From Candidatus Nomurabacteria bacterium (lineage in GTDB: Bacteria > Patescibacteriota > Minisyncoccia > Phycocordibacterales > UBA918): a stretch of 64,000 nt of DNA. Position numbers and translations under genes: made by a program. This document shows, piece after piece, positions 34,419-59,016 of the stretch. Under the pieces are notes generated by a model, which worked only from the letters and a program-made list of their open reading frames with translations, did no database searches and was not told the origin of the DNA. The DNA lies in contig CP060229.1 in NCBI GenBank assembly GCA_023898585.1, forward strand, positions 247,707-311,706. The letters are read 5' to 3'. Position 1 is the first letter of the stretch, and each line of letters starts with the position of its first letter.

Positions 34419-35102
34419 ATGACAAAAGTATCAGATAAAGAAGAGGCTATCCGGTTACGCAAAAATGGATATTCATATAACTTGATTGCTGAAAAGGTGT
34501 CAGTCTCTAAAAGCACTTTATCACTCTGGTTAGCAAAAATACCTTACTCACCAAACAAAGACGTCGTAAAGAGAATTGGAAAGGCCCATGCAGCCGTTAC
34601 AAAGTCTAAACATGAACAGAAACTTGCCAGTTTCAGGGAGGCAGAAAAGTTGGCCAAAATAGACATTGGTGACTTCATAGGCAGGGATCTTTTTATGTTG
34701 GGGTTGGCTTTATATATTGGTGAAGGTGAAAAAAATGACAATGTAGGAGTAATAAATGCCGATCCGAGAATAATCAGGACGTGCATTAGATGGTTGAGGA
34801 AATTTTATGACGTCCCAAATGAAAGTTTTACACTTGCAATACACCTCTATCCAGACAACAACGTCAAAGATTCACTTGAATACTGGTCAAGACAGACAGG
34901 GCTACCGTTGGTGCAGTTTGGAAAAACTCAGATTGATAAACGGAGAAACAAGCGACATAGCAAAAGAAGTAAGCTTCCTTACGGCACCGCACACCTGAGA
35001 GTCCGCGCCGCTGGAAACAAACAACACGGTGTGTTATTATCTCGCCGTATCCAAGCTACAGCGAAGCTGGCTTTGGAGCAAGAACAATATTTGCGGGTGT
35101 AG
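34419..35102 (+). CDS. HTH plus LAGLIDADG-like motif protein, paralog family member A, abutting tRNA-Gly
   Basis: N-terminal HTH (LRKNGYSYNLIAEKVSVSKSTLSLWLAK) and the motif DLFMLGLALYIGEGEK. Start aligned with the three paralogs. The stop TAG at 35100-35102 lies inside tRNA-Gly, which begins at 35093. Confidence 0.7.
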   Translation: MTKVSDKEEAIRLRKNGYSYNLIAEKVSVSKSTLSLWLAKIPYSPNKDVVKRIGKAHAAVTKSKHEQKLASFREAEKLAKIDIGDFIGRDLFMLGLALYIGEGEKNDNVGVINADPRIIRTCIRWLRKFYDVPNESFTLAIHLYPDNNVKDSLEYWSRQTGLPLVQFGKTQIDKRRNKRHSKRSKLPYGTAHLRVRAAGNKQHGVLLSRRIQATAKLALEQEQYLRV

Positions 35103-35163
35103 TTTAGTGGTAAAACACGACGCTTCCAACGTTGAGTCGGGGGTTCGATTCCTCTCACCCGCA
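35093..35163 (+). tRNA. tRNA-Gly (anticodon UCC)
   Basis: Manual fold: acceptor GCGGGTG/CACCCGC, D arm GTTT-AGTGGTA-AAAC, anticodon arm CGACG-cTTCCaa-CGTTG, T arm GGGGG-TTCGATT-CCTCT. No encoded CCA. Confidence 0.8.
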
Positions 35164-35207
35164 CTAGCACAAGAAAACCGGCCTCTTGCCGGTTTTCTTG
35201 TGCTAGC
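35164..35207 (+). terminator. Perfect 19-bp hairpin right after tRNA-Gly, shared with the tRNA-Pro locus
   Basis: CTAGCACAAGAAAACCGGC-ctctt-GCCGGTTTTCTTGTGCTAG. Confidence 0.6.
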
Positions 35208-35214
35208 AGGTTGA

Positions 35215-35290
35215 AGTGAGCAAACTGCTTTGCTCATGTGAGGAATCGAAGGACGGAACGATGTGAGGAAGAATGACGAACGAGCGAGTC
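35215..35290 (+). repeat. Conserved tRNA-downstream element, copy A
   Basis: AGTGAGCAAACTGCTTTGCTCATGTGAGGAATCGAAGGACGGAACGATG... is close to 53792-53842. It contains the hairpin TGAGCAAA-ctgc-TTTGCTCA and an inverted T-loop-like GGAATCGAAGG. Confidence 0.7.
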
Positions 35291-35330
35291 GGGGTCGAGA
35301 AAAATTTTCGCAGAACATTTATTCGTGACA

Positions 35331-35349
35331 GATTCCTCTCATCCACACC
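35331..35349 (+). repeat. Degenerate direct copy of the tRNA-Gly(UCC) 3' end
   Basis: GATTCCTCTCATCCACACC versus the tRNA 3' end GATTCCTCTCACCCGCACT. Confidence 0.5.
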
Positions 35350-35367
35350 ATCAAGCCACCCTTTCGC

Positions 35368-35778
35368 TTAAAAACCGAACCAATTAAACAAAATAATCCC
35401 ACTCATAAACCAACTGGTTGGTATCCACAATAAAAAAGCAAAAGCGTATTTTAGGTTGTACGAGGCTCGGCCGGATTGATCCAATTCCTCAAGTCTTTCT
35501 TCGGTAGCGATCAATAATCTAACCAAAACACCGGCCAACAAACCACCTTCGATACGACGGTATTCAAACTTGCTACCCATACGACCGCGTTCTTTTTCAA
35601 ATTCTTTATCCAGAAAATCACTGTTGCTTTTAAAAGACAATTTTGTTGTGTAAAAAACAACACACAGTGAAGCCAGTAGCGCCACCAAACTTAGCCACGG
35701 AAACTCCCACCGCTCGTTCATAACTGAAAGAACCATCAGTACAAGGATTATCAAAACAACATGTATTGGTTTCATCAA
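35368..35778 (-). CDS. Hypothetical membrane protein
   Basis: 136 aa with three predicted TM helices. Confidence 0.45.
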   Translation of the reverse strand: MMKPIHVVLIILVLMVLSVMNERWEFPWLSLVALLASLCVVFYTTKLSFKSNSDFLDKEFEKERGRMGSKFEYRRIEGGLLAGVLVRLLIATEERLEELDQSGRASYNLKYAFAFLLWIPTSWFMSGIILFNWFGF

Positions 35779-35987
35779 TGAAATTCTAACATTTCATTGC
35801 TTTTCCCCCACTCTTACTGTACCCTCTCCCCGAAATTTAATGCCAACTTCCTGACTTTCATCAAAAAGAGGACGGTTCATTTATATGGAATGTTGATCAG
35901 ACCAACAAGAAGAAATGGTCGCTTTCACTATAGAGATATATTCCGAAATCACAGAGACTACTTAGTGAACACAAAACACTTGATTAT

Positions 35988-36707
35988 TTACTTTTCAAGA
36001 GAAAATTCTCCAAGTATTTTCTGTTGGTAGACATGACCAGCATCAGTGACTGCAGAGAAGTAGATTTTTTCTACTTTCATCTCCACCACTCCTATCTCTC
36101 GATTAAATTTTGGATGTTTGATTAAACCCTTATGTTCTCCAGCTAAATATCCAATAGACATGTGGGGGTTGTAATTTTTGTATCGGTATTCTGGATGAAG
36201 ATCAAAGGGAATGGAATCTGCCAGCTGGTTGTGTAGAACGAAAATATTTCCATTCCTATCGTAGACTTCGCGAAAAATAGTTCCAGGGAAGTAATTTATA
36301 TTACCCAACTCGACAGAAAATTTAGGGAAGTTCTGCACAACCTTCTCGACAGAGCTACGTATTGAGTCAACATCTCTCTCTTGAAATTGTTTACCCATTC
36401 TACCTGGAATCATCAGTGTTATGTGCATATCCTCACTAGAGAGCCAGAGATTTGCCAGACTAGCAGGAACCATAGCTTGTAAATTATCGGATACAACTCT
36501 CATATGTTCATAACAACTTGGGTGTAACGGTACATTAATGCAACACAAGGTCGTTGAATCTTCCCGCCACAATGTATCACCAAAAGTTTTCTTGGTGTTT
36601 TCCCAGATCTCATCGAAATGTTTTATTTGTACTTGGTGGGTACGCATGCTATCCATTACGTTATTAACATCTCTCCTTATAATACTGCTTTTACAACGAT
36701 TGTTCAC
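35988..36707 (-). CDS. 2H-phosphoesterase superfamily protein (LigT / 2',3'-cyclic phosphodiesterase-like)
   Basis: Two H-x-T/S-x motifs (MHITLMIPG and PHMSIGY) in the expected spacing. The start may be an internal Met. Confidence 0.65.
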   Translation of the reverse strand: MNNRCKSSIIRRDVNNVMDSMRTHQVQIKHFDEIWENTKKTFGDTLWREDSTTLCCINVPLHPSCYEHMRVVSDNLQAMVPASLANLWLSSEDMHITLMIPGRMGKQFQERDVDSIRSSVEKVVQNFPKFSVELGNINYFPGTIFREVYDRNGNIFVLHNQLADSIPFDLHPEYRYKNYNPHMSIGYLAGEHKGLIKHPKFNREIGVVEMKVEKIYFSAVTDAGHVYQQKILGEFSLEK

Positions 36708-36763
36708 GTAAAAACAGGAAGTCAGTTACCTCCTGTAAAATAAATCATCTGATTTTTTAGTAC

Positions 36764-37249
36764 CTAGTCAAAGTCCAAAACATCAGACAGGTATTGTCCT
36801 GATTGTAAGAATACAACGTTGCAACCTTCGAAGTCAGAAAGGATCTCTTTGTTTGTTTTATGAGCATTTGTCATGATCTTCTCGACCACTTCTAACTTGT
36901 TACCTCTATCAATGTACCGTTGTCGATACTCATCTTTGAGTGACTCGTCAGGACAGATGACAGTGACAGACAATCCTCTTTCCCTGAGCGCTTGAACAAC
37001 TACAGGATTGGTTGTGATGAGCACCAAATCTGTGTCCCTGGAACGCTCTATAACTTCTTCTATGTAGTTGTTTGGCCAATCCTCTGCTTTTGTATACGGA
37101 GTTGGCTCTATATCAGCTACAGTTATATCGTCGGACAGACCTCCGGTCATAGTCGATTTGCCAACACCGGGCGCTCCAGCAATGATTCCTACAGGTTTAA
37201 TTTTTTCCACACTAGGAACTCCTTCATTTATTTGTTCAAATTTCTCCAT
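36764..37249 (-). CDS. Small P-loop kinase/NTPase (polynucleotide or nucleoside kinase-like)
   Basis: Walker A GAPGVGKST and a Walker B-like DLVLITT. 161 aa. It lies 56 nt upstream of the 2H phosphoesterase on the same strand. Confidence 0.6.
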   Translation of the reverse strand: MEKFEQINEGVPSVEKIKPVGIIAGAPGVGKSTMTGGLSDDITVADIEPTPYTKAEDWPNNYIEEVIERSRDTDLVLITTNPVVVQALRERGLSVTVICPDESLKDEYRQRYIDRGNKLEVVEKIMTNAHKTNKEILSDFEGCNVVFLQSGQYLSDVLDFD

Positions 37250-37315
37250 AGCTTATTATACAACTTGAATTATCTCTCTGAAGACTTCACACCCTTGTGC
37301 AATCCTCAAAAGATA

Positions 37316-37416
37316 GGGCGAGGAGCAATCTCAACTCGCCCATTACCACGATCACAGAAGGTACACACCAGAGTCTGAGCCTATCTCTACGCTAGAGCTC
37401 TGATGAGGGTTTTTGC
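37316..37416 (-). promoter_or_regulatory. Conserved leader/riboswitch-like element, copy 1, 3' part (terminator hairpin plus conserved core), truncated by IS1595
   Basis: Aligns with 39978-40095, with the core TTACCACGATCAC...GAGTCTGAGC...AGCTCT-ATGAGGGTTTTTGC. Hairpin GGGCGAG...CTCGCCC is followed on the minus strand by UAUCUUUUGAGG, about 65 nt before the kinase start. Confidence 0.55.
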
Positions 37417-38442
37417 GGAGTAAAGAAACTTTTTAGGACCTATTTAGTAGCTCAGAAATAACCCTAAGCCTTCTGTCTCTCCTCAGTCCATGGTGTTGGG
37501 CGATTTTCTTTTTGAGTGACGCAAAGTATTCATCAATAGTATTGGTGGTGTTAGGAATATTAAGCTCTGGATATTTTTGGTAGGTAAATAAATTAGGCAA
37601 GTTTCGTTTCAGTGACATATAGGCACTACGTACATTCTTGTGTGTGTAGTACCAATGGTTAGTACAGGTAACGTACGTTTTCTCAGTATAGAAATTATGA
37701 TACTTCTCCTCCCAAATAGTTAGAGCTTTAGCAAAGTCTTCTTCGTTTGTTTTCGTGAGTGTTAAAGCCAGTTTTCGCAGTTCTTTACCAGCTTCAGTCT
37801 TTGGCTTTCTAGTTAAGTACTTGGTCACGGTCTTCAGTTGATGAAACTGACAGATTTGTACTGGTATATCCTTAAAAACCGTTGCTAATCCACGCCTTCC
37901 GTCCACTACGGCAGCGATGAATGTCCAACCACGTTCTTCTAATAATTTACGAGCGTAGTGATAGTGAGACACTTTCTCAGTCTCAACCTCACCCCACCAA
38001 ATGTTTCTTCGTAAGTTCCATGATCTAAAGACACAGACACCGTAGTGTCGTCCCCAGAAGGTGGTGTCAGCTACGATAACCGTCTTTTGTGGTTGTATGT
38101 TTGGTATTGAGGTTTTAACTTGATCTAATCGTGTACGTACCCAGACGTGACTCTTCTTGTATTTGTTAGACAGTTCGGTCAGCGTTTGTTTTTGATGTGT
38201 ATACTCTTCCCATAATTTATTAACCAACCCTGTTTCTCTCTGCTTAGTTTGAAATCGTTTACCACAATCGTTGCAACCATAGCGCTGTCTACCACTTTGT
38301 TTACCTTTCTTTTTAGTTTGTAATGATAAACAATAGGGACATCTAACTCGTTTATTAACCATGCGAGCTAGATAAACATAAAACCACGGCTATACAGAGC
38401 CGTGGTTTTGGTGTTTTAGGTCCTAGATTGTTTCTTTAGCCC
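37417..38442 (-). mobile_element. IS1595-family insertion sequence, 1026 bp, 8-bp target-site duplication GTTTTTGC
   Basis: Imperfect 24-nt terminal inverted repeats (GGAGTAAAGAAACTTTTTAGGACC on the left; GGGCTAAAGAAACAATCTAGGACC as reverse complement on the right). GTTTTTGC flanks the element at 37409-37416 and 38443-38450. The uninterrupted target sequence is seen at 40089-40096. Confidence 0.8.
37433..38362 (-). CDS. IS1595-family transposase (N-terminal zinc ribbon plus DDE)
   Basis: RCPYCLS...YGCNDCGKRF zinc ribbon, followed by a DDE-type core (IVADTTFW, AAVVDGRRG). Confidence 0.75.
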   Translation of the reverse strand: MVNKRVRCPYCLSLQTKKKGKQSGRQRYGCNDCGKRFQTKQRETGLVNKLWEEYTHQKQTLTELSNKYKKSHVWVRTRLDQVKTSIPNIQPQKTVIVADTTFWGRHYGVCVFRSWNLRRNIWWGEVETEKVSHYHYARKLLEERGWTFIAAVVDGRRGLATVFKDIPVQICQFHQLKTVTKYLTRKPKTEAGKELRKLALTLTKTNEEDFAKALTIWEEKYHNFYTEKTYVTCTNHWYYTHKNVRSAYMSLKRNLPNLFTYQKYPELNIPNTTNTIDEYFASLKKKIAQHHGLRRDRRLRVISELLNRS

Positions 38443-38511
38443 GTTTTTGCCTATGTATGCCACTCATCCCGCCTGTGTGTCGTTTGTTGTCTCAAAATTC
38501 TGGGACTCACC
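38443..38511 (-). promoter_or_regulatory. Conserved leader/riboswitch-like element, copy 1, 5' part
   Basis: TTTTTGCCTATGTATGCCACTCATCCCGCCTGTGTGTCGTTTGTTG...GACTCACC, about 90% identical to 40096-40152. Confidence 0.55.
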
Positions 38512-38534
38512 TTCAACACGAACCTGTATTTTAT

Positions 38535-39977: not shown

Positions 39978-40152
39978 CGGGAACAAACAACTATTTTGTT
40001 CCCGCAATAAACCTTTACCACGATCACGGCCGGTACACGTCGAGGAGTCTGAGCTGATCTCCCAATGAAGCTCTAATGAGGGTTTTTGCCTATGTATGCC
40101 TCTCATCCCGCCTGTGTGTCGTTTGTTGCCTAAGAAATTACTTAGACTCACC
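39978..40152 (-). promoter_or_regulatory. Conserved leader/riboswitch-like element, copy 2 (intact), upstream of the symporter gene
   Basis: About 175 nt aligning with copy 1. On the minus strand a long-range GAGUCU/AGACUC pairing and a GAUGAG/CUCAUY helix are possible. Terminator hairpin GCGGGAACAAA...UUUGUUCCCGC plus UAUCUUCUCU lies about 75 nt before the symporter ATG. Confidence 0.55.
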
Positions 40153-40215
40153 GCCACCATGCATCCTTGTTGATTTATTACGCGCAGGCAGGAACCAAGG
40201 TCTGCGCGTGCGAAC

Positions 40216-41154
40216 TCACTTGGTCCACAGTTCCAGTTCACGCCGATTCAGGGCATTTACCTGCTCCTCATACACTTCTGAGAAGTCGCTCAACTTGAGA
40301 TATTCCTTACCCCAAGGAGCGTAGAACTGTCCGTCCCAGCGGAGCACCACATTAGATGTGGCGATGACACTGTCCGGGTAGTAGACGATCCTACTACCGT
40401 TCGGGGTTTCAGCTTCGAGGCTGTCACCCGTGTCACTCGGCGCCCACGAGAACTCACTAAGAGAACCTCGCAGTATGCGCACGAACTCCGAGTCGTAGAG
40501 ATTGATGAGCTTCGGGATACCCGACAGTAGCACATCAAATCCTTCCCTCACCGTACGTTCGTCGGTAAAGTTGACCTGACCGCGTTTAACGGTCTCTGGG
40601 AAATTGACCACGAGCGCGACCGACATCGGAACATCATAGTCCCGGAGGCGCGCTTCGAAGTCGGACCAACCGTCAAACGACCACGGACTGAACGCGGTTG
40701 ACACGATGGGATCAAATCCAAGCGCTTTGAGGCGCAGGATCGTATCCCAAGCTTTGTCAAACGAGCCAACCTTGCGGCGCTGACGGTCGTGAGCTTCTGG
40801 CGACCCATCGAGGGAGATGCTGATATGGCCATACCGCGACAAGAAATCCTCTCTGCGCATTATGGTATAACCGTTATCAATGATTCCCAACGGAATGTCC
40901 CTTGCGAAACACTCCTCGATGAACCGCTCGCCTCGCGGTGTGAGCGTGCGACCGGCATAAACCACCGGCACACCCCACTTCGCGACTTGATCCGCCTGTG
41001 CAGTCCAGTCATTCCCATCTTTGGGCGACCCGACACCATGCGGCCAGAAGCAATGTTCGCACTTGAGGTTGCACTCAGCGACCGGGACCGCATCCACGCG
41101 TACCGGGTGCAAACTGTACAACTCGCCATTCATCCACTTTTCAATTGCTTTCAT
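40216..41154 (-). CDS. Radical SAM enzyme (CX3CX2C, no SPASM domain), function unknown
   Basis: AECNLKCEHCFW cluster, a glycine-rich region, IIDNGYT and ISLDGS motifs. Start at MKAIEKW has a good RBS (GAGGAAAGAGAAATG). The gene is GC-rich relative to its flanks. Confidence 0.75.
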   Translation of the reverse strand: MKAIEKWMNGELYSLHPVRVDAVPVAECNLKCEHCFWPHGVGSPKDGNDWTAQADQVAKWGVPVVYAGRTLTPRGERFIEECFARDIPLGIIDNGYTIMRREDFLSRYGHISISLDGSPEAHDRQRRKVGSFDKAWDTILRLKALGFDPIVSTAFSPWSFDGWSDFEARLRDYDVPMSVALVVNFPETVKRGQVNFTDERTVREGFDVLLSGIPKLINLYDSEFVRILRGSLSEFSWAPSDTGDSLEAETPNGSRIVYYPDSVIATSNVVLRWDGQFYAPWGKEYLKLSDFSEVYEEQVNALNRRELELWTK

Positions 41155-41739
41155 TTCTCTTTCCTCTTGGTTAGTAGAAATTGCAGCGCTAGTACTCACG
41201 CTGCTGTTCCTACCAACCAAGCTAGAGAATAGTGACAAAGAACAAATCTCAATGGATGCTCGATCTTTGATCAAGCACCTAATAGAGAGGAGGAAGTGTC
41301 TACTTCCTCCGAAATTTAAATGGCAGCCTGAGAAACGTGGCGCTGCCAGACCCCGCTGCCTTCCCGACAGAGGGCGTCCCTTTCAGGACTTTGGCCTTGG
41401 CGGCTCTTTACCCTTAGGCCCGGCGATAACACCCATGGTGTTCCCCCTACCGTTTGGACCGACGGTTTCGGTTTGGGCAGTATGCCCGCTTGACCGTGGA
41501 ACCTCCTTCCCTTTGGGACCGGCGACTGCTGGCATGGTTCTCTCCTCGCCCCCATGGGCTGTTGCGGGGCAGACGCCCCAGGTGTGATGAACTTTGAACT
41601 GCGATAATCATAGCCCAAAGTAGCTTGACAGTTAAATTATTATGTTGCTTTGTGTGCTAATTGGTATAATTACTTTGTTTATTGGGCTTTTTTGGAGTTT
41701 ATGTATTGACGGATTTCCCGTTATTTTTATAATAGAAGG

Positions 41740-42561
41740 ATGTCTAAAGTGACTGATTTAGCACAAACCATTGGCTTGGAAGCCACTGAGTCAACAGTGT
41801 TTAGCTCGCTCTTAGCCGGTGGGCGACAGAATGTCGCCCGCCTCACCCGCGCCTGTGGTGAGCCCCGTTCCACCGTAATCGATACACTCGCCCGCCTCCA
41901 AAAGCGCGGTCTAGTCCGACCAGTCCCAATCGGCAAACACACGGAATGGAAAGTTACCAACGCCATCACGCTGGCGGAGAAATTTCTGCGCGTGGCAGAA
42001 CTATTGCAGGCGCCAGCCGACACTGGCACGCAAGAAAAACATCTGCATCTCCAACTATCACGCGAGTCGGAATTCACCATCTTTGTCGGCTGGCGCAATA
42101 TGATCGCTATCTACAAGCGCGAAATGATCGCCCACGCAAACCAACGTCTTTTGGCAATGCAAAGTGCATCTTCAATCAAGACGGCTTTAGAAAAAGCTGG
42201 TTCTGACGATTTCATACCGGTCAACGATGCCATTCGTGAACACAAGGTAATCATCGAAGCAGTGATTGGCGAAGGGATGTTGAAGTGGTACACCGAACAA
42301 GATCCAAATTGGGTAAAAAGCCTTGAGGGCCGAACGATCGCCTACCGAGTGGTCGAAGACGAACTTCTCGACTTCACCGCCGAACTACTAATATTCAACA
42401 ACCTATTCTTGCTCGTGAACTGGCAAGAGGAAGTGCTGATCCTCATCAAAAACCAACAAATGCTCAACATGATGAAAAAGCTTCATACTCTCATGTATGA
42501 AACCGGCCATCAGTTTGATCAAAATGAGTATTTGCGTAAAGTATTGGAAAATAGGAAGTGA
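41740..42561 (+). CDS. TrmB-like / MarR-type winged-helix transcriptional regulator
   Basis: N-terminal wHTH (ESTVFSSLLAGGRQNVARLTRACGEPRSTVIDTLARLQKRGLV). 273 aa. Confidence 0.6.
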   Translation: MSKVTDLAQTIGLEATESTVFSSLLAGGRQNVARLTRACGEPRSTVIDTLARLQKRGLVRPVPIGKHTEWKVTNAITLAEKFLRVAELLQAPADTGTQEKHLHLQLSRESEFTIFVGWRNMIAIYKREMIAHANQRLLAMQSASSIKTALEKAGSDDFIPVNDAIREHKVIIEAVIGEGMLKWYTEQDPNWVKSLEGRTIAYRVVEDELLDFTAELLIFNNLFLLVNWQEEVLILIKNQQMLNMMKKLHTLMYETGHQFDQNEYLRKVLENRK

Positions 42562-52165: not shown

Positions 52166-52179
52166 AGTGTCTTATCCTT

Positions 52180-53245: not shown

Positions 53246-53491
53246 GACTCACCCTCGCTTTTTTTTAACAGGAGTGTTATATTTTGCTGACTTAAATCAC
53301 GTTTGTGGTTTTTGTTTGGGTGATCGGGGTGTATCTTCGACTGCGGGCTCGATACATTCCCTCTTTGTTCGGTCATGGTGTGCTATGCAAGCGTAGCTTG
53401 CATCAAGAAATTTTTACCGAGAAGCCGTAAGCAAGCTTCCGCTGCTCGGGAAAAATTTCTTGACTTCTGCACACCACGACGCTCACGACAT

Positions 53492-53533
53492 CGGGGTGTA
53501 GCATAATGGTAGTGTACGCGGTTTGGGGTCTGT
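53492..53533 (+). repeat. 5' fragment of tRNA-Pro (about 42 nt, diverges after the anticodon loop)
   Basis: CGGGGTGTAGCATAATGGTAGTGTACGCGGTTTGGGG, then unrelated sequence. Confidence 0.6.
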
Positions 53534-53562
53534 CCTTTCAATTTTCATATTTTTGGCTACGT

Positions 53563-53633
53563 CGGGGTGTAGCATAATGGTAGTGTACGCGGTTTGGGAC
53601 CGCGCGGCCCGGGTTCGATTCCCGGCTCCCCGA
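53563..53633 (+). tRNA. tRNA-Pro (anticodon UGG); U6-U67 mismatch and two G-U pairs in the D stem
   Basis: CGGGGTG-TA-GCAT-AATGGTA-GTGT-A-CGCGG-tTTGGGa-CCGCG-CGGC-CCGGG-TTCGATT-CCCGG-CTCCCCG-A. The architecture parallels E. coli tRNA-Pro(UGG). Confidence 0.7.
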
Positions 53634-53704
53634 CGTAGCCCGAAATGGAAATTGAAAGAATTGACCAACAAGCTGGGAGCTTGTTGTGGCTTCGAAGAAG
53701 GCGT

Positions 53705-53733
53705 GGCCCGGGTTCGATTCCCGGCTCCCCGAC
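53705..53733 (+). repeat. 3' half copy of tRNA-Pro (T arm plus acceptor 3' strand)
   Basis: GGCCCGGGTTCGATTCCCGGCTCCCCGACA. Confidence 0.7.
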
Positions 53734-53736
53734 AAA

Positions 53737-53778
53737 CACAAGAAAAGTCAGGTTTATTTATTCCTGGCTTTTCTTGTG
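53737..53778 (+). terminator. Hairpin related to the one after tRNA-Gly(UCC)
   Basis: CACAAGAAAAG-tcaggtttatttattcctgg-CTTTTCTTGTG. Confidence 0.5.
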
Positions 53779-53791
53779 GTAAGGAGGGACT

Positions 53792-53911: not shown

Positions 53912-53944
53912 GTGACCGTCAGGACGATTCTCCGCTCCCCGACA
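53912..53944 (+). repeat. Degenerate copy of the tRNA-Pro 3' end
   Basis: GACGATTCTCCGCTCCCCGACAAATG. Confidence 0.5.
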
Positions 53945-54008
53945 AATGAAAACCTGCTTGAATAACAAATTCATGCAGTTTTTCGTTATAATTCAAAAAT
54001 TGTGAGCC

Positions 54009-54322: not shown

Positions 54323-54497
54323 TCTAACATACTGATCATTCACTTTGTTTCACTCATCACTGCTGTTCTTGATGCTATATAAAATTTCATAATCATTATG
54401 TAAGTTAATGAGTATAACACACAAACTAAACTCAGACGTTTGTTTCACGTGGAACACTTCCCTGCTGTTTCATGTAAAAACATCATTTGAACTTTAA

Positions 54498-54728: not shown

Positions 54729-54732
54729 TATT

Positions 54733-55143: not shown

Positions 55144-55370
55144 GTTTAACGACTTTGATATGTTCCACGTGAAACGTCAAATATTTATTTCTAGTATTTG
55201 TTTCATGTGAAATACGGCCTTAATTATAGCAGTATCGTATAAAGGACACTAGGGTTTGAAAAGTGTGGATTGTCCTTTATCCCCATATCAACTGGTTATC
55301 CACAGTTATTAACATACGAAAAACACCTAGTAGGGGTGTCTTTCGTATTTTGTTGAGGCGTCATTATTTG

Positions 55371-55568
55371 TGCGGGTAGGGGTAATCGAAACCTGACGGT
55401 CTCTAAATTCACCCCAAGGGCACTTCCAACGACTTTGTCGAAGGGGCGCGCCACTCATTAAGAGCCGCGGGTCACGCCTCGACTGTCGTACTCTCTTCGC
55501 TCCGTGCGACATGTCTCCGGCGGTTTTGATTACCACGAAAGGTGCGCAGGCACCTTTCTCCTACCCGC
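55371..55568 (-). ncRNA. tRNA-Gly(GCC)-derived structured element of about 198 nt (tRNA 5' and 3' ends flanking a hairpin-rich insert); interrupted pseudo-tRNA or tRNA-like RNA
   Basis: On the minus strand it starts GCGGGTAGG (the tRNA starts GCGGGTATAG) and ends CAGGTTTCGATTACCCCTACCCGCACA (the tRNA ends GGGGTTTCGATTACCCCTACCCGCACCA). The insert contains AAAGGTGC-ctgc-GCACCTTT and CGAC-aaa-GTCG hairpins. Confidence 0.45.
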
Positions 55569-55573
55569 AGTCG

Positions 55574-55600
55574 AAAAAAGCCCTTTGTGGGGGCTTTTTT
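55574..55600 (-). terminator. Terminator after tRNA-Gly(GCC)
   Basis: Minus strand: AAAAAAGCCCCCACAAAGGGCTTTTTT. Confidence 0.65.
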
Positions 55601-55602
55601 CT

Positions 55603-55676
55603 TGGTGCGGGTAGGGGTAATCGAAACCCCGTCTTCTGATTGGCAACCAGACGTTCTACCACTAAACTATACCCGC
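55603..55676 (-). tRNA. tRNA-Gly (anticodon GCC), CCA encoded
   Basis: Minus strand: GCGGGTA-TA-GTTT-AGTGGTA-GAAC-G-TCTGG-tTGCCaa-TCAGA-AGAC-GGGGT-TTCGATT-ACCCC-TACCCGC-A-CCA. Confidence 0.85.
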
Positions 55677-55692
55677 ATTTTATCTCTTCCTG

Positions 55693-56358
55693 TTAAACAG
55701 TTGTTCTATTTAATACCATTTCAGGTAATTGGTCAATCCACAGATTTATCTTCTTTTTTAGATAAGTGTTTGAGACAACAACCGTACACACTCCGTGTGG
55801 CAGTTTTTTTGTTTTGTGCCTACTGGGCAACACTTGGGTTTTGTGAAACTTTTGAATACCGGTGATGTCACTCCAAAAATTTTTACACACTGTTTCATTT
55901 AAGTCTGTATAGATAAATAAGGCCAATTTAATCTTCTCGATCGGTACTTTACAGATAATCAAAAGGAATTCTAGAAAAATCTGGATCATTTTAGGGTCAG
56001 TATTTGTTAGTCTAACTTGATTACGGCTCAATTTGTCACCTTCGCCCCAATAAGCGAAAACTGCCGAGATAAAGAGGGGATCATTTTTGTATTTTTCCAT
56101 TTCCATTTGTGCCTCTTGCTTGGCAACCTCATACGACGCTCTTAGTGTCTCGCCACGAGTTCGGTTTAAATCTTTTATTCTTGCAGAACTAGTACGCCTT
56201 GATTCTTCTACCAAGCTTTTTCTAATTTTCTCTGAAAAATCAACACCTTTAAACCAATTTGAAAGGGTGCTTTTTGATATACCCAATTTGTCACAAATAT
56301 CCCTATAGCTCTTTCCTTGTTGACGTAATGCAAAGGCTTTGTCTTTATCTGTTCTCAT
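55693..56358 (-). CDS. HTH plus LAGLIDADG-like motif protein, paralog D, immediately 5' of tRNA-Gly(GCC)
   Basis: LRQQGKSYRDICDKLGISKSTLSNWFK HTH and the motif DPLFISAVFAYWGEGDK. The stop lies 17 nt from the tRNA 5' end. Confidence 0.7.
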   Translation of the reverse strand: MRTDKDKAFALRQQGKSYRDICDKLGISKSTLSNWFKGVDFSEKIRKSLVEESRRTSSARIKDLNRTRGETLRASYEVAKQEAQMEMEKYKNDPLFISAVFAYWGEGDKLSRNQVRLTNTDPKMIQIFLEFLLIICKVPIEKIKLALFIYTDLNETVCKNFWSDITGIQKFHKTQVLPSRHKTKKLPHGVCTVVVSNTYLKKKINLWIDQLPEMVLNRTTV

Positions 56359-56390
56359 GTATACTGACTAGTATACATCACTAGTTCAGT

Positions 56391-57047
56391 TTATAGTTCC
56401 TTTTTCAACATTTCAACCCAAACAAGCAGTTTCTGCTTTGCCAAAACGCTATTTAACAAAGTGTTTCCTGTGCCTTTATGGGCTGACTTGGTTCGACTTG
56501 ATACGAATTGTGGCTTACCAAAGGCAGAAACTGAAAGTTTGATTTGCTTTGACCACCATCTTGTGTTTTTTTCAATTGAACTGCCTTGAGGGAGTAAAAG
56601 CCAAAATTTGATGCTTGTTTTTTCCGCACCAATGTATTCATGTAAAAACTTGATAAAAATTTGATGAGATTCAGCTCGGTTAACAGACAAGCGAATCCGA
56701 TTGCTTGTGTTAAGATCTCCAGCCACCAGATAAATCATCAACCCAGCAACGAAAAGGGGATTGTTTTTGTAATGTTTGAACTCAGTTTCGGCGGAGCGGA
56801 CAGCCTCGCGGTAGCGTGCGACTCGCTCTGTACCGCGCGCTTTATTTATCAGCTTCAGTCGTTTGGCGTTTTCAGCGCCGGCGCGCTTAACGTTTTGCTT
56901 GGTAACTTGTGCTGAAAAAGCCTTATTTTTCAACCATTTTGAGGCGGTGGACTTCGAAATGTCACAGTACTTGGCAATCTCTTCTAAAGTAAAACCGCGC
57001 TTACGCAAACGCACTGCCTGATCGTATTTTTCCTTATTTCGAACCAT
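56391..57047 (-). CDS. HTH plus LAGLIDADG-like motif protein, paralog C
   Basis: LRKRGFTLEEIAKYCDISKSTASKWLK HTH and the motif NPLFVAGLMIYLVAGDL. In tandem with paralog D. Confidence 0.65.
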   Translation of the reverse strand: MVRNKEKYDQAVRLRKRGFTLEEIAKYCDISKSTASKWLKNKAFSAQVTKQNVKRAGAENAKRLKLINKARGTERVARYREAVRSAETEFKHYKNNPLFVAGLMIYLVAGDLNTSNRIRLSVNRAESHQIFIKFLHEYIGAEKTSIKFWLLLPQGSSIEKNTRWWSKQIKLSVSAFGKPQFVSSRTKSAHKGTGNTLLNSVLAKQKLLVWVEMLKKEL

Positions 57048-57122
57048 ATCGTGTGTATATTATATACTAATTCTATTTGTTCGATTTGGGTTATTCAGAC
57101 CAAAGCATGTTAAAATCTTTTT

Positions 57123-57398
57123 ATGCTTGAGTTAATCACTTGGCTTTACGCCGGAAATGGTGTCATCGCCCTGCTGGCCTACCTACCACAAATTAAAAAA
57201 CTTGTCACAGAGAATAGTCGGGCAGTGAACTTTTCCATATTAAGCTGGTCAATGTGGACGTACTCGAACTTGGTTGCTGTGCTTTACGCGATTTTTGTAG
57301 TCCATGACCATCTTTTAACTACCGTTGTCAGTATCAACTTGGCTGGCTGTACTCTGGTCTTATCGCTGGTTTTGTTTAAAAACTCTAAGTACAAATAG
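57123..57398 (+). CDS. PQ-loop / SemiSWEET-like small membrane protein
   Basis: 91 aa with three TM helices and an LAYLPQIKKL PQ motif. Confidence 0.5.
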   Translation: MLELITWLYAGNGVIALLAYLPQIKKLVTENSRAVNFSILSWSMWTYSNLVAVLYAIFVVHDHLLTTVVSINLAGCTLVLSLVLFKNSKYK

Positions 57399-57496
57399 AG
57401 ATATTTTTCTCCCCAGAGGTGCTATATTCAGAAAAAGCCCAGTGTAAAACTGGACTTTATTCAGTATGTGCGGGCTTATTCAACGATTTAGAACTC

Positions 57497-58027
57497 TCAA
57501 AGATAGAATCGTCTAACAATATCTGACAAGTCGCTTTTCATTATTTCTCCTTCATCACCTCTTTTAACTATCTCTTCTGGTGTTAGCCATTCGAAACCTG
57601 AAAATTCTTCAGGATTATAAGAGGGTGTTTTGTTGGTTTTGATTTCAAATAGTTTCTGGAAACAAGCAGTATGGTCTAGGTGTGGTTTAAGGTGTGCGAT
57701 TTCTACAAAGTTTTCTGGAGTGAGTTGTAAATTAACTTCTTCTTCGGCTTCCTTAATTAGCGCTTCTTCGTATGTTCCACCAGAGGATACGTGTCCGGCA
57801 ATACTATAATCCAGTCCGTTAGGAAATAATTTTTTGGTAGAAACTCGGCGAGGTGTCCAGATCTTTCCTTCAGAATTAATGATAAAAGCATGCACTACTC
57901 TAAAGTTTTTTAAACCTCTCCTGTACACTTCTTTCCTGGAAATAGAATCAATAACTGAGTCATTTTCATCAACTAAGTCCAGTACTTCTTCCGGTGAATC
58001 TGCCTCTCTGGGTGCATGGTTTTGCAT
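57497..58027 (-). CDS. NUDIX hydrolase
   Basis: GHVSSGGTYEEALIKEAEEEVNL NUDIX box. Confidence 0.8.
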   Translation of the reverse strand: MQNHAPREADSPEEVLDLVDENDSVIDSISRKEVYRRGLKNFRVVHAFIINSEGKIWTPRRVSTKKLFPNGLDYSIAGHVSSGGTYEEALIKEAEEEVNLQLTPENFVEIAHLKPHLDHTACFQKLFEIKTNKTPSYNPEEFSGFEWLTPEEIVKRGDEGEIMKSDLSDIVRRFYL

Positions 58028-58210
58028 GCTGTCATTGTATCAGAAATCTGAACGATAAAAGCACCTAATTAGGCGCTTAAATCATGTGTGCACCTGCCAG
58101 GACTCGGTCACAAGTCGCTCCCTTCAGTCGCGCTCGCGACCCCGCCTCCTTACGCTTCACTCCAGTCCGGCTTTCGAGTTTGCCCCCAACAATGCGAGAC
58201 CAAACTAAAA

Positions 58211-58255
58211 ACAACCCAGTTTTATTGGGTTGTTTTTAGTTTGGTGCACCCGCCA
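58211..58255 (-). terminator. Perfect 19-bp palindromic hairpin immediately 3' of tRNA-Arg
   Basis: CCAAACTAAAAACAACCCA-gttttat-TGGGTTGTTTTTAGTTTGG. Confidence 0.6.
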
Positions 58256-58328
58256 GGATTCGAACCTGGGACGACGGTTCCGAAGACCGTAATGATAATC
58301 CGCTTCACCACGGGTGCAAAATGTACTG
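58253..58328 (-). tRNA. tRNA-Arg (anticodon UCG), CCA encoded
   Basis: Minus strand: GCACCCG-TG-GTGA-AGCGGATTA-TCAT-T-ACGGT-cTTCGga-ACCGT-CGTC-CCAGG-TTCGAAT-CCTGG-CGGGTGC-A-CCA. Confidence 0.8.
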
Positions 58329-58338
58329 TAGGAGTCTA

Positions 58339-59016
58339 CTACCTTTTGCAGTGATATTCAACAAGCGCCTTTGTCCATCCCGTGATCTGTAGAAAAAGCG
58401 CTGTACTTCTCGGGACTTCTATACGCAAGCACCCTTCGTAATTTGGGCGCTTCTTGTGGCCACGACTAGTAGGCTTGATGACGGTCTTCTTAAATTGAGA
58501 TAAGGAGACCTGCAACTTTTTTGCCCAAACTCTTTCATATCCCAAGTGCGCATATGGTTTATGTACATACAGACGATATCCCAACTCTTCTCGCTTATAT
58601 GCAGTAAATCGCTGTATCCACTCAAGCATAATGAAAATCATGTCAGGATCTGAATTCACAAACTGAAACGCATTGCTTCGCTTGGCACCCTCAGCCCAGT
58701 AAAGTGCAATACCAACGTGAAAAAGAGGATCGGTGGCGAGGGAGGAGAATTCTGTCTGAGCTGCTTTAATAATTTCTCCGTCACGTTTTAGCTTATTATC
58801 ATGATGAGCTGTCGCAGCTTTGATCCTACCTTGAGAAATGTTTGTGTCACATCTTTTCCGCAGATATCTTTTTTCAGCTACAGTAAGAGGCAGATCCTTG
58901 AGCCACAGCGATAGTGAACTCTTTGCCACCGGCACTTGCTTGAGGATCTCGTTGTAGCTTAAGCCTTTCTTTCGCAGGGCAATGGCTTTTTCTTTTTCTT
59001 GAACTAGTTTTTTCAT
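58339..59016 (-). CDS. HTH plus LAGLIDADG-like motif protein, paralog B, immediately 5' of tRNA-Arg
   Basis: LRKKGLSYNEILKQVPVAKSSLSLWLK HTH and the motif DPLFHVGIALYWAEGAK. The stop lies 11 nt from the tRNA 5' end. Confidence 0.7.
   Translation of the reverse strand: MKKLVQEKEKAIALRKKGLSYNEILKQVPVAKSSLSLWLKDLPLTVAEKRYLRKRCDTNISQGRIKAATAHHDNKLKRDGEIIKAAQTEFSSLATDPLFHVGIALYWAEGAKRSNAFQFVNSDPDMIFIMLEWIQRFTAYKREELGYRLYVHKPYAHLGYERVWAKKLQVSLSQFKKTVIKPTSRGHKKRPNYEGCLRIEVPRSTALFLQITGWTKALVEYHCKR

What the first reader, a model, noticed from the sequence alone, without database searches (positions are those of the whole stretch)
34419..59016. A four-member family of HTH plus LAGLIDADG-like proteins; three of the four genes sit directly 5' of tRNA genes on the same strand
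Seen in sequence: ORFs at 34419-35102 (+), 55693-56358 (-), 56391-57047 (-) and 58339-59016 (-) are clear paralogs. Each is about 220 aa. Each has an N-terminal HTH (consensus A..LR..G.SY.EI....SKSTLS.WLK) and a central motif PLF..G.ALYWAEG.K. Three end within 0-17 nt of a co-oriented tRNA gene: tRNA-Gly(UCC) with a 10-nt overlap of stop codon and tRNA, tRNA-Gly(GCC), and tRNA-Arg(UCG). The fourth is in tandem with one of the three. Inference: the motif resembles the single LAGLIDADG helix of homing endonucleases (LYWAEG against LIDADG). A selfish endonuclease or DNA-binding gene that homes to the 5' side of tRNA genes, or is transcribed with them, would explain both the multiplicity and the positions. 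I do not recognise this arrangement as a described system.
Basis: partly seen in the sequence, partly recalled or inferred. Interest (0 to 1): 0.85.

Follow-up and report, generated by a model that had tools for sequence, protein, structure and literature searches.

The report
tRNA-gene-locked HTH–LAGLIDADG endonuclease family
The four paralogs belong to a large, unannotated family of nuclease-like proteins in ultra-small (Patescibacteria) bacteria; each branch of the family sits directly against one particular tRNA gene, which looks like a long-lived "homing" endonuclease lineage specialised on tRNA genes and has not, as far as I could find, been described.

Summary
The window (Candidatus Kaiserbacteria) holds four paralogs (27-32% identity). 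Three end 10 nt inside, 16 nt before and 21 nt before a co-oriented tRNA gene.

The tRNA link holds phylum-wide. In 80 species genomes, 69 of 87 family genes end within -98..+30 nt of a co-oriented tRNA, against 14 of 522 background ORFs. Protein clades match tRNA identity one to one.

Relatives lie beside tRNA-Gln in Actinomadura and inside phage tRNA arrays. One phage relative has the same HTH fused to a PD-(D/E)XK homing-nuclease domain.

Past mobility is indicated by empty syntenic sites and by displaced, motif-dead copies, of which window paralog 3 is one. However, dN/dS of 0.06-0.13 and largely vertical inheritance show long-term maintenance.

Best reading: free-standing, dimeric, tRNA-gene-specific homing-type endonucleases, possibly partly domesticated. 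Cleavage, target site and homing are untested. I found no published description.

The parts
34383..34418 (+). Promoter of paralog 1: TCGAAC (34383-34388), 17-nt spacer, TATACT (34406-34411), then ATG 7 nt later, so the mRNA is probably leaderless. AATCGAACC is the reverse complement of a TpsiC-box-like GGTTCGATT.
   Evidence: Read directly from the sequence. GAAC/GTTCRA elements are enriched upstream of family genes. Promoter function is inferred.
34419..35102 (+). Paralog 1 (227 aa), Gly(UCC) clade: N-terminal HTH, long linker helix, LAGLIDADG domain (motif LALYIGEGEK).
   Evidence: It has 39-53% orthologs next to tRNA-Gly(UCC) in L001-L019.
35093..35164 (+). tRNA-Gly(UCC). Its nucleotides 8-10 (TAG) serve as the stop codon of paralog 1.
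35165..35207 (+). Hairpin plus T-run directly after the tRNA; probable terminator of the ORF-tRNA unit.
   Evidence: Read directly from the sequence; function inferred.
55574..55600 (-). Hairpin plus T-run directly after tRNA-Gly(GCC); probable terminator.
   Evidence: Read directly from the sequence; function inferred.
55603..55676 (-). tRNA-Gly(GCC), 16 nt downstream of the paralog 2 stop codon.
55693..56358 (-). Paralog 2 (221 aa), Gly(GCC) clade, sub-lineage B, intact motif FAYWGEGDK.
   Evidence: It is 55-57% identical to L061_dn and L071, which abut tRNA-Gly(GCC).
56391..57047 (-). Paralog 3 (218 aa), Gly(GCC) clade, sub-lineage A. It is displaced from the tRNA by paralog 2. Its motif is MIYLVAGDL, which has lost both the conserved Glu and the conserved Lys, so it is probably catalytically dead.
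   Evidence: The same order (degenerate A, intact B, tRNA) occurs in L061.
58202..58241 (-). AT-rich hairpin plus T-run directly after tRNA-Arg; probable terminator.
   Evidence: Read directly from the sequence; function inferred.
58242..58317 (-). tRNA-Arg(UCG), 21 nt downstream of the paralog 4 stop codon.
58318..58358 (-). Promoter-like TTGAAT-N17-TAGACT that spans the stop codon of paralog 4. It is conserved in the Arg(UCG) clade (L061, L069, L074) and may be the tRNA's own promoter.
   Evidence: alignment by eye of four loci; clade scores. It falls below the threshold of the promoter scan. Function is inferred.
58339..59016 (-). Paralog 4 (225 aa), Arg(UCG) clade, motif ALYWAEGAK. AlphaFold2 model pLDDT 89.9.
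59026..59053 (-). Best sigma-70-like promoter of the region: TTAACA, 16-nt spacer, TG-extended TATAAT. It ends 9 nt before the paralog 4 ATG and is preceded by the terminator at 59059-59086.

Best explanation
What it is: these genes encode a previously unannotated family of free-standing, single-motif LAGLIDADG endonuclease-type proteins. Each has an N-terminal helix-turn-helix domain, a ~35-residue linker helix and one LAGLIDADG domain.

How it probably works:
- The protein acts as a homodimer. Natural fusions with two domains exist.
- It acts on DNA at its cognate tRNA gene. Each clade is specific for one tRNA gene: Gly-UCC, Gly-GCC, Arg-UCG, Arg-UCU, Arg-CCU, Lys-CUU, Ile-UAU, Gln-UUG, Met-CAU, and Leu and Val in phages.
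- Each clade stays physically glued to that gene, usually with its stop codon 0-30 nt before the tRNA 5' end or inside it.

Proposed mechanism (inferred, not shown):
- The HTH is the part most conserved across clades. It would anchor on a feature shared by all tRNA genes, most plausibly the TpsiC box GGTTCRA, as phage T4 SegB does.
- The dimeric LAGLIDADG core would read and cut clade-specific tRNA-gene sequence in alleles that lack the endonuclease gene. Repair would then copy in the endonuclease gene together with the adjacent tRNA.
- The gene brings its own promoter with a near-leaderless start. TpsiC-box-like GAAC/GTTC elements there would allow autorepression.
- In many lineages the tRNA is probably read through from this promoter.

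Evolutionary state: in present-day Patescibacteria the elements are old, mostly inherited vertically and under strong purifying selection. They behave as long-lived homing endonucleases, possibly addictive or partly domesticated, rather than as recent invaders.

Shown: fold, motif conservation, tRNA linkage, clade-tRNA correspondence, empty sites, displaced dead copies, selection.
Inferred: cleavage, target, homing, autoregulation.
For: Fold and active site:
- The A2 profile aligns to I-DmoI 103-144, the second LAGLIDADG motif: FIKGLYVAEGDK against family LYWAEGxK.
- The Glu/Asp is kept in 84 of 85 members, Gly in 84 of 85 and Lys in 82 of 85.
- Both domains of the fused members keep the Glu and Lys.

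tRNA linkage:
- 69 of 87 family ORFs have a co-oriented tRNA within -98..+30 nt of the stop codon, and 5 more have a convergent tRNA within 30 nt. Background is 14 of 522.
- Two apparent exceptions are intron-split tRNAs.
- NJ clades match tRNA identity exactly.
- Saccharimonadia orthologs abut the same tRNA-Gly(UCC) in the opposite orientation. The link is therefore to the gene's DNA, not to a shared transcript.
- Five of five Actinomadura/Allonocardiopsis double-unit homologs abut tRNA-Gln(UUG), and they branch next to the Patescibacteria Gln clade.

Mobility signatures:
- The syntenic site between the CCA-adding-enzyme gene and tRNA-Arg(UCG) is occupied in the window, L061, L069 and L074. 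It is empty in L071 (equally related), L062, L023, L025, L041, L033 and L028.
- At tRNA-Gly(GCC), related genomes carry sub-lineage A only, B only, or a dead A followed by an intact B and then the tRNA.
- Frameshifted or truncated copies occur in L039, L047, L019 and L061.
- Homologs lie in the tRNA arrays of 73-231 kb viral contigs. One has the same HTH fused to PF11645, an I-Ssp6803I-type homing-nuclease domain.

Own promoter:
- GAAC/GTTC elements and GTTCRA are enriched upstream of family genes: 36% against 7%, p = 9e-10. They are not enriched upstream of gene-less tRNAs.

Precedent:
- SegB is a free-standing homing endonuclease in the T4 tRNA cluster. Its recognition core is the TpsiC box (PMC2330249).
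Against: - No cleavage activity, target site or homing event is demonstrated.
- tRNA sequences at occupied and empty sites show no consistent diagnostic difference that would mark a cleavable versus an immune allele.
- dN/dS of 0.06-0.13 between species, few pseudogenes, and clades that roughly follow taxonomy all point to long vertical maintenance. That is unusual for purely selfish homing endonuclease genes, which normally decay after fixation.
- Clade-specific residues are spread over the linker and the nuclease domain. They are not clearly concentrated on a DNA-contact surface.
- The TpsiC-like promoter element occurs in only about a third of the genes.
- Pfam LAGLIDADG models and Foldseek against the PDB did not detect the family.
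Confidence: 0.55

Rival explanations
1. Domesticated DNA-binding regulator, WhiA-like. The LAGLIDADG scaffold plus HTH would no longer drive mobility. Each paralog would be a dedicated transcription factor or guardian of one tRNA gene. It would bind the tRNA gene and its own promoter to tune tRNA output, or cut foreign (phage-borne) copies of that tRNA gene.
For: - WhiA, a LAGLIDADG-derived transcription factor with an HTH, is among the best structural matches.
- Purifying selection is strong, with dN/dS of 0.06-0.13.
- Synteny is conserved within Saccharimonadia and within Actinomadura.
- Inverted-repeat GAAC...GTTC elements bracket the -10 box of the gene's own promoter in the Gln and Ile clades: 12 of 85 against 0 of 307.
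- The HTH is nearly invariant across clades.
Against: - Unlike WhiA, the catalytic-position Glu and the Lys are almost invariant. They are kept in both halves of the fused proteins.
- Occupancy is patchy. Most genomes have the gene at only some tRNAs, and related genomes differ. That does not fit a core requirement for tRNA expression.
- Dead displaced copies, phage copies and the nuclease-module swap are hallmarks of mobile nucleases.
- In Saccharimonadia the gene sits at the tRNA 3' end, not at its promoter.
Confidence: 0.25
2. RNA-level role. The protein would bind the co-transcribed pre-tRNA (maturase-like or nuclease-like) and assist or control its 5' processing. The ORF-tRNA overlap would couple translation to RNase P cleavage.
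For: - ORF and tRNA are contiguous on one strand in about 80% of cases.
- Stop codons are often supplied by the tRNA itself: TAG at nucleotides 8-10, TAA at 13-15 in Gln, TAA at 36-38 in Lys. RNase P cleavage of a co-transcript would therefore leave a non-stop mRNA.
- Some LAGLIDADG proteins are RNA maturases (established knowledge).
- Weak fold similarity to Rid/L-PSP and RNase P Pop5-type proteins.
Against: - The HTH types matched (HTH_23, HTH_7, HTH_3) are DNA-binding.
- Saccharimonadia, L032 and P0160 have the gene convergent with the tRNA, so there is no co-transcript.
- The Arg(CCU) clade has the tRNA upstream of the gene.
- The Rid and Pop5 similarities drop away once the two-domain model is used.
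Confidence: 0.1
3. Passive hitch-hiking. An ordinary HTH gene family would merely tend to sit upstream of tRNA genes, for example because strong tRNA promoters or terminators are convenient, with no specific relation to the tRNA.
For: tRNA genes are common landmarks for rearrangement. Some tRNAs appear to keep a promoter-like element within the gene's 3' end.
Against: - The protein clade to tRNA identity correspondence is one to one across classes and phyla.
- Adjacency is kept when orientation flips.
- Adjacency is 79% against 2.7% for background ORFs.
- The nuclease motif is conserved.
Confidence: 0.03

Closest known systems
I-DmoI and related archaeal/intein LAGLIDADG homing endonucleases (I-Tsp061I, PI-PfuI, PI-PkoII)
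   Same: - The motif LYWAEGxK aligns with I-DmoI LYVAEGDK, including the acidic residue and the lysine.
- Both single-domain (dimeric) and fused two-domain forms exist, as in canonical LAGLIDADG enzymes.
   Different: - Not encoded in an intron or intein.
- Carries an N-terminal HTH and a long linker helix.
- Sequence is too divergent for the Pfam LAGLIDADG models.
- The target appears to be tRNA genes rather than rRNA or protein-coding genes.
- Activity is untested.
Phage T4 SegB (free-standing GIY-YIG homing endonuclease in the tRNA gene cluster)
   Same: - Free-standing nuclease gene lying between tRNA genes.
- SegB cuts inside tRNA genes and recognises the TpsiC box GGTTCRANTCC.
- It drives co-inheritance of itself and the neighbouring tRNA genes (PMC2330249).
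- Family members also lie in phage tRNA arrays, and TpsiC-like elements are enriched at their promoters.
   Different: - Different nuclease superfamily (GIY-YIG against LAGLIDADG).
- SegB has relaxed specificity for many tRNA genes. Here each clade is tied to one tRNA species.
- This family is chromosomal, ancient and phylum-wide in bacteria, not a single phage gene.
WhiA (LAGLIDADG-derived transcription factor with an HTH)
   Same: LAGLIDADG scaffold combined with an HTH DNA-binding domain. It is among the top structural hits.
   Different: - WhiA has two degenerate LAGLIDADG domains followed by a C-terminal HTH and has lost the catalytic residues (established knowledge).
- This family has the HTH at the N-terminus, one domain, and a nearly invariant Glu and Lys.
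- No sequence-level match to the Pfam WhiA models.
I-Ssp6803I / PF11645 PD-(D/E)XK homing endonucleases of tRNA-gene group I introns
   Same: - They target tRNA genes.
- A phage relative (L083/L084) fuses the family's HTH to a PF11645 domain inside a tRNA array.
- PF11645 endonucleases are reported in tRNA-fMet introns of cyanobacteria (PMC13011429).
   Different: Different nuclease fold. Those enzymes are intron-encoded in the anticodon loop, whereas the family genes lie outside the tRNA at its 5' edge.
I-TevI autorepression (a homing endonuclease that also represses its own promoter)
   Same: The architecture is a DNA-binding HTH module tethered by a linker to a nuclease domain. Operator-like repeats overlap the family's own promoter. 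The I-TevI precedent is from my own knowledge and was not checked here.
   Different: I-TevI is a GIY-YIG enzyme with a C-terminal HTH and is intron-encoded. Autoregulation in this family is only inferred.

Membership tests
LAGLIDADG endonuclease superfamily | alpha-beta-beta-alpha-beta-beta-alpha core domain. Two such domains pack through their LAGLIDADG helices. | tested here: met
   [not shown]
LAGLIDADG endonuclease superfamily | LAGLIDADG motif helix ending in a conserved acidic residue (metal ligand). | tested here: met
   The profile aligns to the second motif of I-DmoI (E = 0.12, not significant alone): LYVAEGDK against LYWAEGxK. Glu/Asp is kept in 84 of 85 members, the following Gly in 84 of 85 and Lys in 82 of 85. 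That this position is I-DmoI's catalytic Glu rests on my own knowledge.
LAGLIDADG endonuclease superfamily | Significant match to curated sequence models (Pfam LAGLIDADG_1/_2/_3, LAGLIDADG_WhiA). | tested here: not met
   Only HTH models match at E <= 1. Nothing matches the C-terminal 130 residues in Pfam, NCBIfam, PHROGs or PADLOC. The family is therefore a divergent, unmodelled branch.
LAGLIDADG endonuclease superfamily | Site-specific DNA cleavage, leaving 4-nt 3' overhangs at a 14-40 bp site. | not testable with these tools
   Needs in vitro cleavage assays.
Homing endonuclease gene (mobile element) | Sporadic presence/absence at the same genomic site in related genomes. | tested here: met
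   The site between the CCA-adding-enzyme gene and tRNA-Arg(UCG) is occupied in 4 genomes and empty in 7, including L071, which is as closely related as the occupied ones. tRNA-Gly(GCC) is occupied in 6 loci and empty in 4 (L041, L046, L062, L080). labels L062 'OCC' only because the Lys-clade gene lies two positions upstream.
Homing endonuclease gene (mobile element) | Cycle of invasion, degeneration and loss, leaving degenerate copies. | tested here: inconclusive
   Degenerate copies exist: window paralog 3, L061_up, L039, L047 and L019. However, about 95% of copies are intact and dN/dS is 0.06-0.13.
Homing endonuclease gene (mobile element) | Endonuclease cuts the gene-less allele, and the gene is copied in by repair (biased inheritance). 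| not testable with these tools
   Needs crosses or transformation experiments, or population data. tRNA sequences at occupied and empty sites gave no diagnostic difference.
Homing endonuclease gene (mobile element) | Horizontal spread across lineages and into phages, with modular exchange of DNA-binding and nuclease domains. | tested here: met
   Members occur in Streptosporangiales next to tRNA-Gln and in tRNA arrays on viral contigs. One viral relative has the same HTH fused to a PF11645 nuclease domain.
WhiA-type LAGLIDADG-derived transcription factor | Two degenerate LAGLIDADG domains lacking catalytic residues, plus a C-terminal HTH. | tested here: not met
   The domain order is reversed, there is one domain, and the acidic residue is conserved. 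There is no Pfam LAGLIDADG_WhiA/HTH_WhiA match. Only the fold is shared.

The most novel reading that the evidence does not exclude
The family is not (or is no longer) a selfish element. It would instead be a host system in which each tRNA gene can have its own dedicated LAGLIDADG/HTH protein, a 'one protein per tRNA gene' layer. Such a protein might control transcription or processing of that tRNA. Alternatively it might defend the chromosomal tRNA locus by cutting foreign (phage-borne or incoming) copies of the same tRNA gene. It would have been maintained by purifying selection from Patescibacteria to Actinomadura.
Probability: 0.25. Interest if true: 0.9.

Novelty: new variant of a known kind. 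Interest (0 to 1): 0.74.

Why it matters
If right, this is a very large family of LAGLIDADG-type nucleases with a new architecture (HTH, long helix, single LAGLIDADG domain). It has at least 4,293 clusters at 50% identity and is currently annotated only as 'hypothetical' or 'HTH domain protein'.

- Its clades come ready sorted by natural target, because each is tied to one tRNA gene. That would be a rich natural panel for studying how LAGLIDADG specificity evolves, and for meganuclease engineering.
- It would show that tRNA genes in the most reduced bacterial genomes are occupied by long-lived nuclease genes. These genes supply promoters, overlap the tRNA and even borrow its nucleotides as stop codons. 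This matters for tRNA expression, genome stability and annotation in Patescibacteria.
- It links chromosomal tRNA loci, phage tRNA arrays and cross-phylum transfer between Patescibacteria and Actinomycetota.
- Cultured carriers exist (Minisyncoccus archaeiphilus, Actinomadura species), so the question is directly testable.

Tried and rejected
- Pfam, NCBIfam, PHROGs and PADLOC gave no hit for the C-terminal domain.
- Foldseek against the PDB gave nothing significant, with I-DmoI only at rank 28. AFDB50 was not available.
- The search for related loci with the 48-sequence alignment failed for lack of a conserved stretch. The 4-sequence alignment worked.
- I considered that the GAAC element is simply the -35 box of tRNA promoters captured by insertion. 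Rejected: tRNAs without the gene have ordinary TTGAnn-N17-TAAAAT promoters, and GAAC occurs at background frequency there, 6 of 69.
- I considered that the tRNA always depends on read-through from the family gene. Not upheld: the Arg clade has a conserved promoter-like element across the stop codon. Promoter-like scores upstream of occupied tRNAs (29% at or above 8) are about the same as at gene-less tRNAs (32%).
- I looked for tRNA sequence differences between occupied and empty sites, as a sign of target immunity. None was consistent.
- I looked for specificity-determining residues concentrated on the beta-sheet. There was only a weak trend.
- I looked for remnants of a family gene near tRNA-Pro and elsewhere in the window. 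None was found.
- I looked up the contig of the two-domain protein P0121. It is too short to show context.
- Four literature searches found no description of this family.

Full report
OBSERVATION

The window comes from a Candidatus Kaiserbacteria (Patescibacteria/CPR) genome. Paralog 1 is identical to KC865_03760 on a 994,774-bp contig. Paralogs 2 and 3 are USN92522.1 and USN92523.1.

The four ORFs exist as described and are full-length paralogs at 27-32% identity. A maximum-sensitivity HMM scan of all six frames finds exactly these four and no remnants.

ARAGORN and Rfam agree on four tRNA genes. Their relation to the family genes is as follows:
- Paralog 1 overlaps tRNA-Gly(UCC) by 10 nt. 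Its TAG stop is tRNA nucleotides 8-10.
- Paralog 2 ends 16 nt before tRNA-Gly(GCC).
- Paralog 4 ends 21 nt before tRNA-Arg(UCG).
- Paralog 3 lies 32 nt upstream of paralog 2.

Each unit has the same layout:
- an upstream terminator;
- a TATAAT-like box only 7-12 nt before the ATG, with no Shine-Dalgarno sequence, so the mRNA is probably leaderless;
- the ORF;
- the tRNA;
- a hairpin with a T-run.

WHAT THE PROTEIN IS

Curated libraries recognise only the N-terminal HTH (HTH_23, HTH_3, HTH_7). The C-terminal ~130 residues match nothing in Pfam, NCBIfam, PHROGs or PADLOC.

A 48-sequence profile aligns, weakly (E = 0.12) but precisely, to residues 103-144 of I-DmoI, its second LAGLIDADG motif. 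I-DmoI reads IAFIKG--LYVAEGDKTLKRLRIWNKNKALLEIVSRWLNN. The family consensus reads PLFvaGlalYlgeGdkksnrlirlansdpemikifikflee.

In 85 family members from 80 genomes, the motif G-x-x-L-Y-W-[AG]-E-G-x-K is nearly invariant. Glu occurs in 82 members and Asp in 2 more, Gly in 84 and Lys in 82.

The decisive test came from nature. A search of 1.84 billion representative proteins with the C-terminal domain found 4,293 clusters (E <= 1e-3). These included double-length proteins. P0121 has one HTH followed by two copies of the domain, both with the intact motif.

The family is therefore a divergent LAGLIDADG branch. Its single-domain members should act as dimers. The retention of the acidic residue and lysine argues for a live active site. 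WhiA, by contrast, has lost these residues (my knowledge).

THE tRNA LINK IS GENERAL AND CLADE-SPECIFIC

A scan of one genome per GTDB species returned 80 loci across Patescibacteria. These span Paceibacteria, Saccharimonadia, Doudnabacteria and the cultured Minisyncoccus archaeiphilus.

With my own HMM and ARAGORN, the counts for the 87 family ORFs were:
- 69 end between -98 and +30 nt of the 5' end of a co-oriented tRNA;
- 5 more are followed within 30 nt by a convergent tRNA.

Among other ORFs of at least 100 aa in the same tRNA-rich loci, 14 of 522 have a co-oriented tRNA that close.

Most apparent exceptions dissolved on inspection:
- L054 and L067 have a group I intron 23-57 nt downstream, which marks an intron-split tRNA that ARAGORN missed.
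- L032 has a convergent tRNA 10 nt away.
- L035, L053 and L059 have tRNA-Arg(CCU) 15-22 nt upstream instead.

A neighbour-joining tree sorts the proteins exactly by the identity of the adjacent tRNA. The clades are Gly-UCC, Gly-GCC, Arg-UCG, Arg-UCU, Lys-CUU, Ile-UAU, Gln-UUG and Met-CAU.

Recurrent overlaps show that the ORFs often have no stop codon of their own:
- -10 nt: TAG at tRNA nucleotides 8-10;
- -15 nt: TAA at nucleotides 13-15 of tRNA-Gln;
- -38 nt: TAA at nucleotides 36-38 of tRNA-Lys.

In Saccharimonadia, the Gly-UCC orthologs (~40% identical to paralog 1) abut the same tRNA in convergent orientation. The stop codon lies 1-7 nt from the encoded CCA end. The linkage is therefore to the tRNA gene as DNA, not merely to a shared transcript.

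BEYOND PATESCIBACTERIA

Five double-unit homologs from 73%-GC genomes all abut tRNA-Gln(UUG). They come from Actinomadura atramentaria, A. flavalba, A. parmotrematis, Allonocardiopsis opalescens and one metagenome. All are annotated as hypothetical or HTH proteins.

Four of them share the synteny TetR, desaturase, [gene], tRNA-Gln, glmU, prs. The fifth is convergent with the tRNA. In the tree they sit next to the Patescibacteria Gln clade.

Seven large viral contigs carry relatives inside tRNA arrays:
- One ends 15 nt inside tRNA-Leu(CAG).
- Three identical ones end at tRNA-Val(UAC).
- Two have the family's HTH fused to a PF11645 PD-(D/E)XK domain instead, and are flanked by two different tRNA-Asp genes.

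PF11645 endonucleases are reported in tRNA-gene introns (PMC13011429). Exchange of nuclease modules on a shared DNA-binding module is typical of homing endonucleases.

MOBILITY VERSUS MAINTENANCE

Evidence for past insertion and loss is as follows.

(i) The CCA-adding-enzyme gene (window 59935-61407) is divergently adjacent to tRNA-Arg(UCG) in many genomes.
- In the window, L061, L074 and L069 a family gene fills the interval. The distance is 773-792 nt in the three loci and 1,618 nt in the window, which also holds an extra unannotated ORF.
- In L071 the interval is only 83 nt. Its CCA enzyme is 63% identical to the window's, within the 62-69% range of the occupied genomes.
- In six more distant genomes the interval is 40-235 nt.

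(ii) At tRNA-Gly(GCC) there are two sub-lineages.
- L069 and L074 have sub-lineage A next to the tRNA.
- L071 has sub-lineage B.
- The window and L061 have A, then B, then the tRNA. In both, the displaced A copy has lost the Glu. The window's copy is paralog 3, with motif VAGDL. L061's copy reads AAGDI and also has an internal deletion.
- This is what successive insertion at the tRNA 5' edge would produce.

(iii) Frameshifted or truncated copies occur in L039, L047 and L019.

Evidence against a purely selfish, recently mobile element:
- About 95% of copies are intact.
- dN/dS is 0.06-0.13 for pairs with dS of 0.5-1.1.
- Identities within the Gly-UCC clade fall roughly with taxonomic distance.
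- tRNA sequences at occupied and empty sites show no consistent difference.

PROMOTERS

The family genes carry a distinctive upstream element:
- GAAC at -50..-21 occurs in 46% of family upstream regions, against about 9% of control gene starts.
- GTTC at -10..-1 occurs in 20%, against 1%.
- In the Gln and Ile clades the two form an inverted repeat bracketing the -10 box (12 of 85 against 0 of 307).
- The longer pattern GTTCRA/TYGAAC, which is the core of the tRNA TpsiC box, occurs within 70 nt upstream in 27 of 75 family genes against 19 of 289 controls (p = 9e-10).

tRNAs without a family gene have ordinary TTGAnn-N17-TAAAAT promoters, and GAAC occurs at background frequency there (6 of 69). 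The element therefore travels with the gene.

The HTH is the most conserved part of the protein and carries the least clade-specific information. That fits recognition of a feature common to all tRNA genes.

T4 SegB is a free-standing GIY-YIG homing endonuclease located between tRNA genes. It recognises a 27-bp site whose core is GGTTCRANTCC, the TpsiC box, and it drives co-inheritance of itself and the neighbouring tRNA genes (PMC2330249). It is the closest functional precedent.

Co-transcription of ORF and tRNA is likely where no promoter-like sequence is seen. This applies to the Gly-UCC and Gln clades and to window paralogs 1 and 2. It is not general. The Arg-UCG clade, including paralog 4, has a conserved TTGAAY-N17-TAGACT that spans the stop codon and ends 8-15 nt before the tRNA.

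INTERPRETATION

The best-supported reading (about 0.55) has three parts:
- The family is a free-standing, dimeric LAGLIDADG endonuclease with an HTH anchor.
- Its clades are specific for individual tRNA genes.
- The genes entered at the edge of the tRNA gene and have since persisted for very long periods. Persistence could come from continued homing, from exclusion of gene-less alleles, or from partial domestication.

The rivals are:
- a WhiA-like, fully domesticated regulator or guardian of individual tRNA genes (about 0.25);
- an RNA-level role on pre-tRNA (about 0.10);
- passive hitch-hiking (about 0.03), which is essentially excluded by the clade-tRNA correspondence.

Cleavage, target site, homing and autoregulation are all inferred. 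None is shown.

NOVELTY

Four full-text searches found no description of this family. The nearest work covers three topics:
- LAGLIDADG endonucleases in CPR rRNA insertions (PMC11270868);
- group I introns in Patescibacteria tRNA genes (PMC13011429);
- SegB (PMC2330249, PMC13096335).

I rate it a new variant of a known kind. The nuclease superfamily and the free-standing homing-endonuclease lifestyle are known. The architecture, the strict one-clade-one-tRNA-gene linkage, the ORF/tRNA overlap and the phylum-wide, selection-maintained distribution are new.

Noticed in passing
window 53488-53780 (also 53925-53946): tRNA-Pro(UGG), the only tRNA in the window without a family gene, is nested in partial copies of itself. 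A 98% copy of its first 37 nt, ending exactly at position 37/38 of the anticodon loop, lies 71 nt upstream. A 97% copy of its 3' part lies 99 nt downstream. The 34-nt and 66-nt spacers are complementary to each other and extend the acceptor stem. It looks like an interrupted outer tRNA-Pro with a 173-nt insert that holds a complete tRNA-Pro. This may be a scar of break repair in the anticodon loop. No Rfam intron is found there.
   Followed up: partly
L054 3663-3952; L067 3693-3997: Two family genes abut tRNA genes split by group I introns (Rfam RF00028, 107 and 61 bits), which ARAGORN does not call. In L067 the ORF again stops at the tRNA's TAG at nucleotides 8-10. The tRNA identity could not be fixed. 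The 5' exon of the L054 tRNA resembles tRNA-Asn(GUU) with the 35/36 intron described in PMC13011429.
   Followed up: partly
P0121, P0133, P0134, P0160, P0197, P0243 (loci L088-L094): Natural fusions exist in two forms: HTH with two LAGLIDADG domains (P0121), and two complete HTH-LAGLIDADG units in one chain (Actinomadura, Allonocardiopsis). This parallels the evolution of canonical LAGLIDADG enzymes from homodimer to monomer. The actinobacterial ones sit in a conserved locus: TetR, desaturase, [gene], tRNA-Gln, glmU, prs.
   Followed up: partly
L083/L084 3001-3621: A protein in a tRNA array on 184-231 kb viral contigs has the family's N-terminal HTH fused to a PF11645 PD-(D/E)XK homing-nuclease domain. 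It lies between two different tRNA-Asp(GUC) genes that are 62% identical.
   Followed up: partly
window 59935-61407 (+) and L022-L079: The CCA-adding enzyme gene (PolyA_pol head plus HD domain) is divergently adjacent to tRNA-Arg(UCG) in many Paceibacteria. This is a conserved synteny between a tRNA-maturation enzyme gene and a tRNA gene.
   Followed up: no
window 59114-59782 (-): A 222-aa ORF with no match in Pfam, PADLOC or the family HMM lies between the CCA-enzyme gene and paralog 4. It is absent from the corresponding interval of L061, L069 and L074.
   Followed up: no
window 57123-58027: A NUDIX hydrolase gene (57497-58027, -) and a small PQ-loop-like ORF (57123-57398, +) lie between tRNA-Arg(UCG) and paralog 3. 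In L069 and L074 this interval is only about 400 nt.
   Followed up: no
window 40001-42000: GC content rises to 0.53, against about 0.42-0.46 elsewhere in the window. Not examined.
   Followed up: no
L002 and L005, upstream of the Gly(UCC)-clade genes: A long, nearly perfect inverted repeat (TAGAACTTCTGTAT ... ATACAGATGTTCTA) brackets the -10 box and ends at the ATG. Similar clade-specific repeats occur elsewhere: ACCAT-N6-ATGGT around TATAAT in the Arg(UCG) clade, and repeated ATGGTAC in the Saccharimonadia genes.
   Followed up: partly
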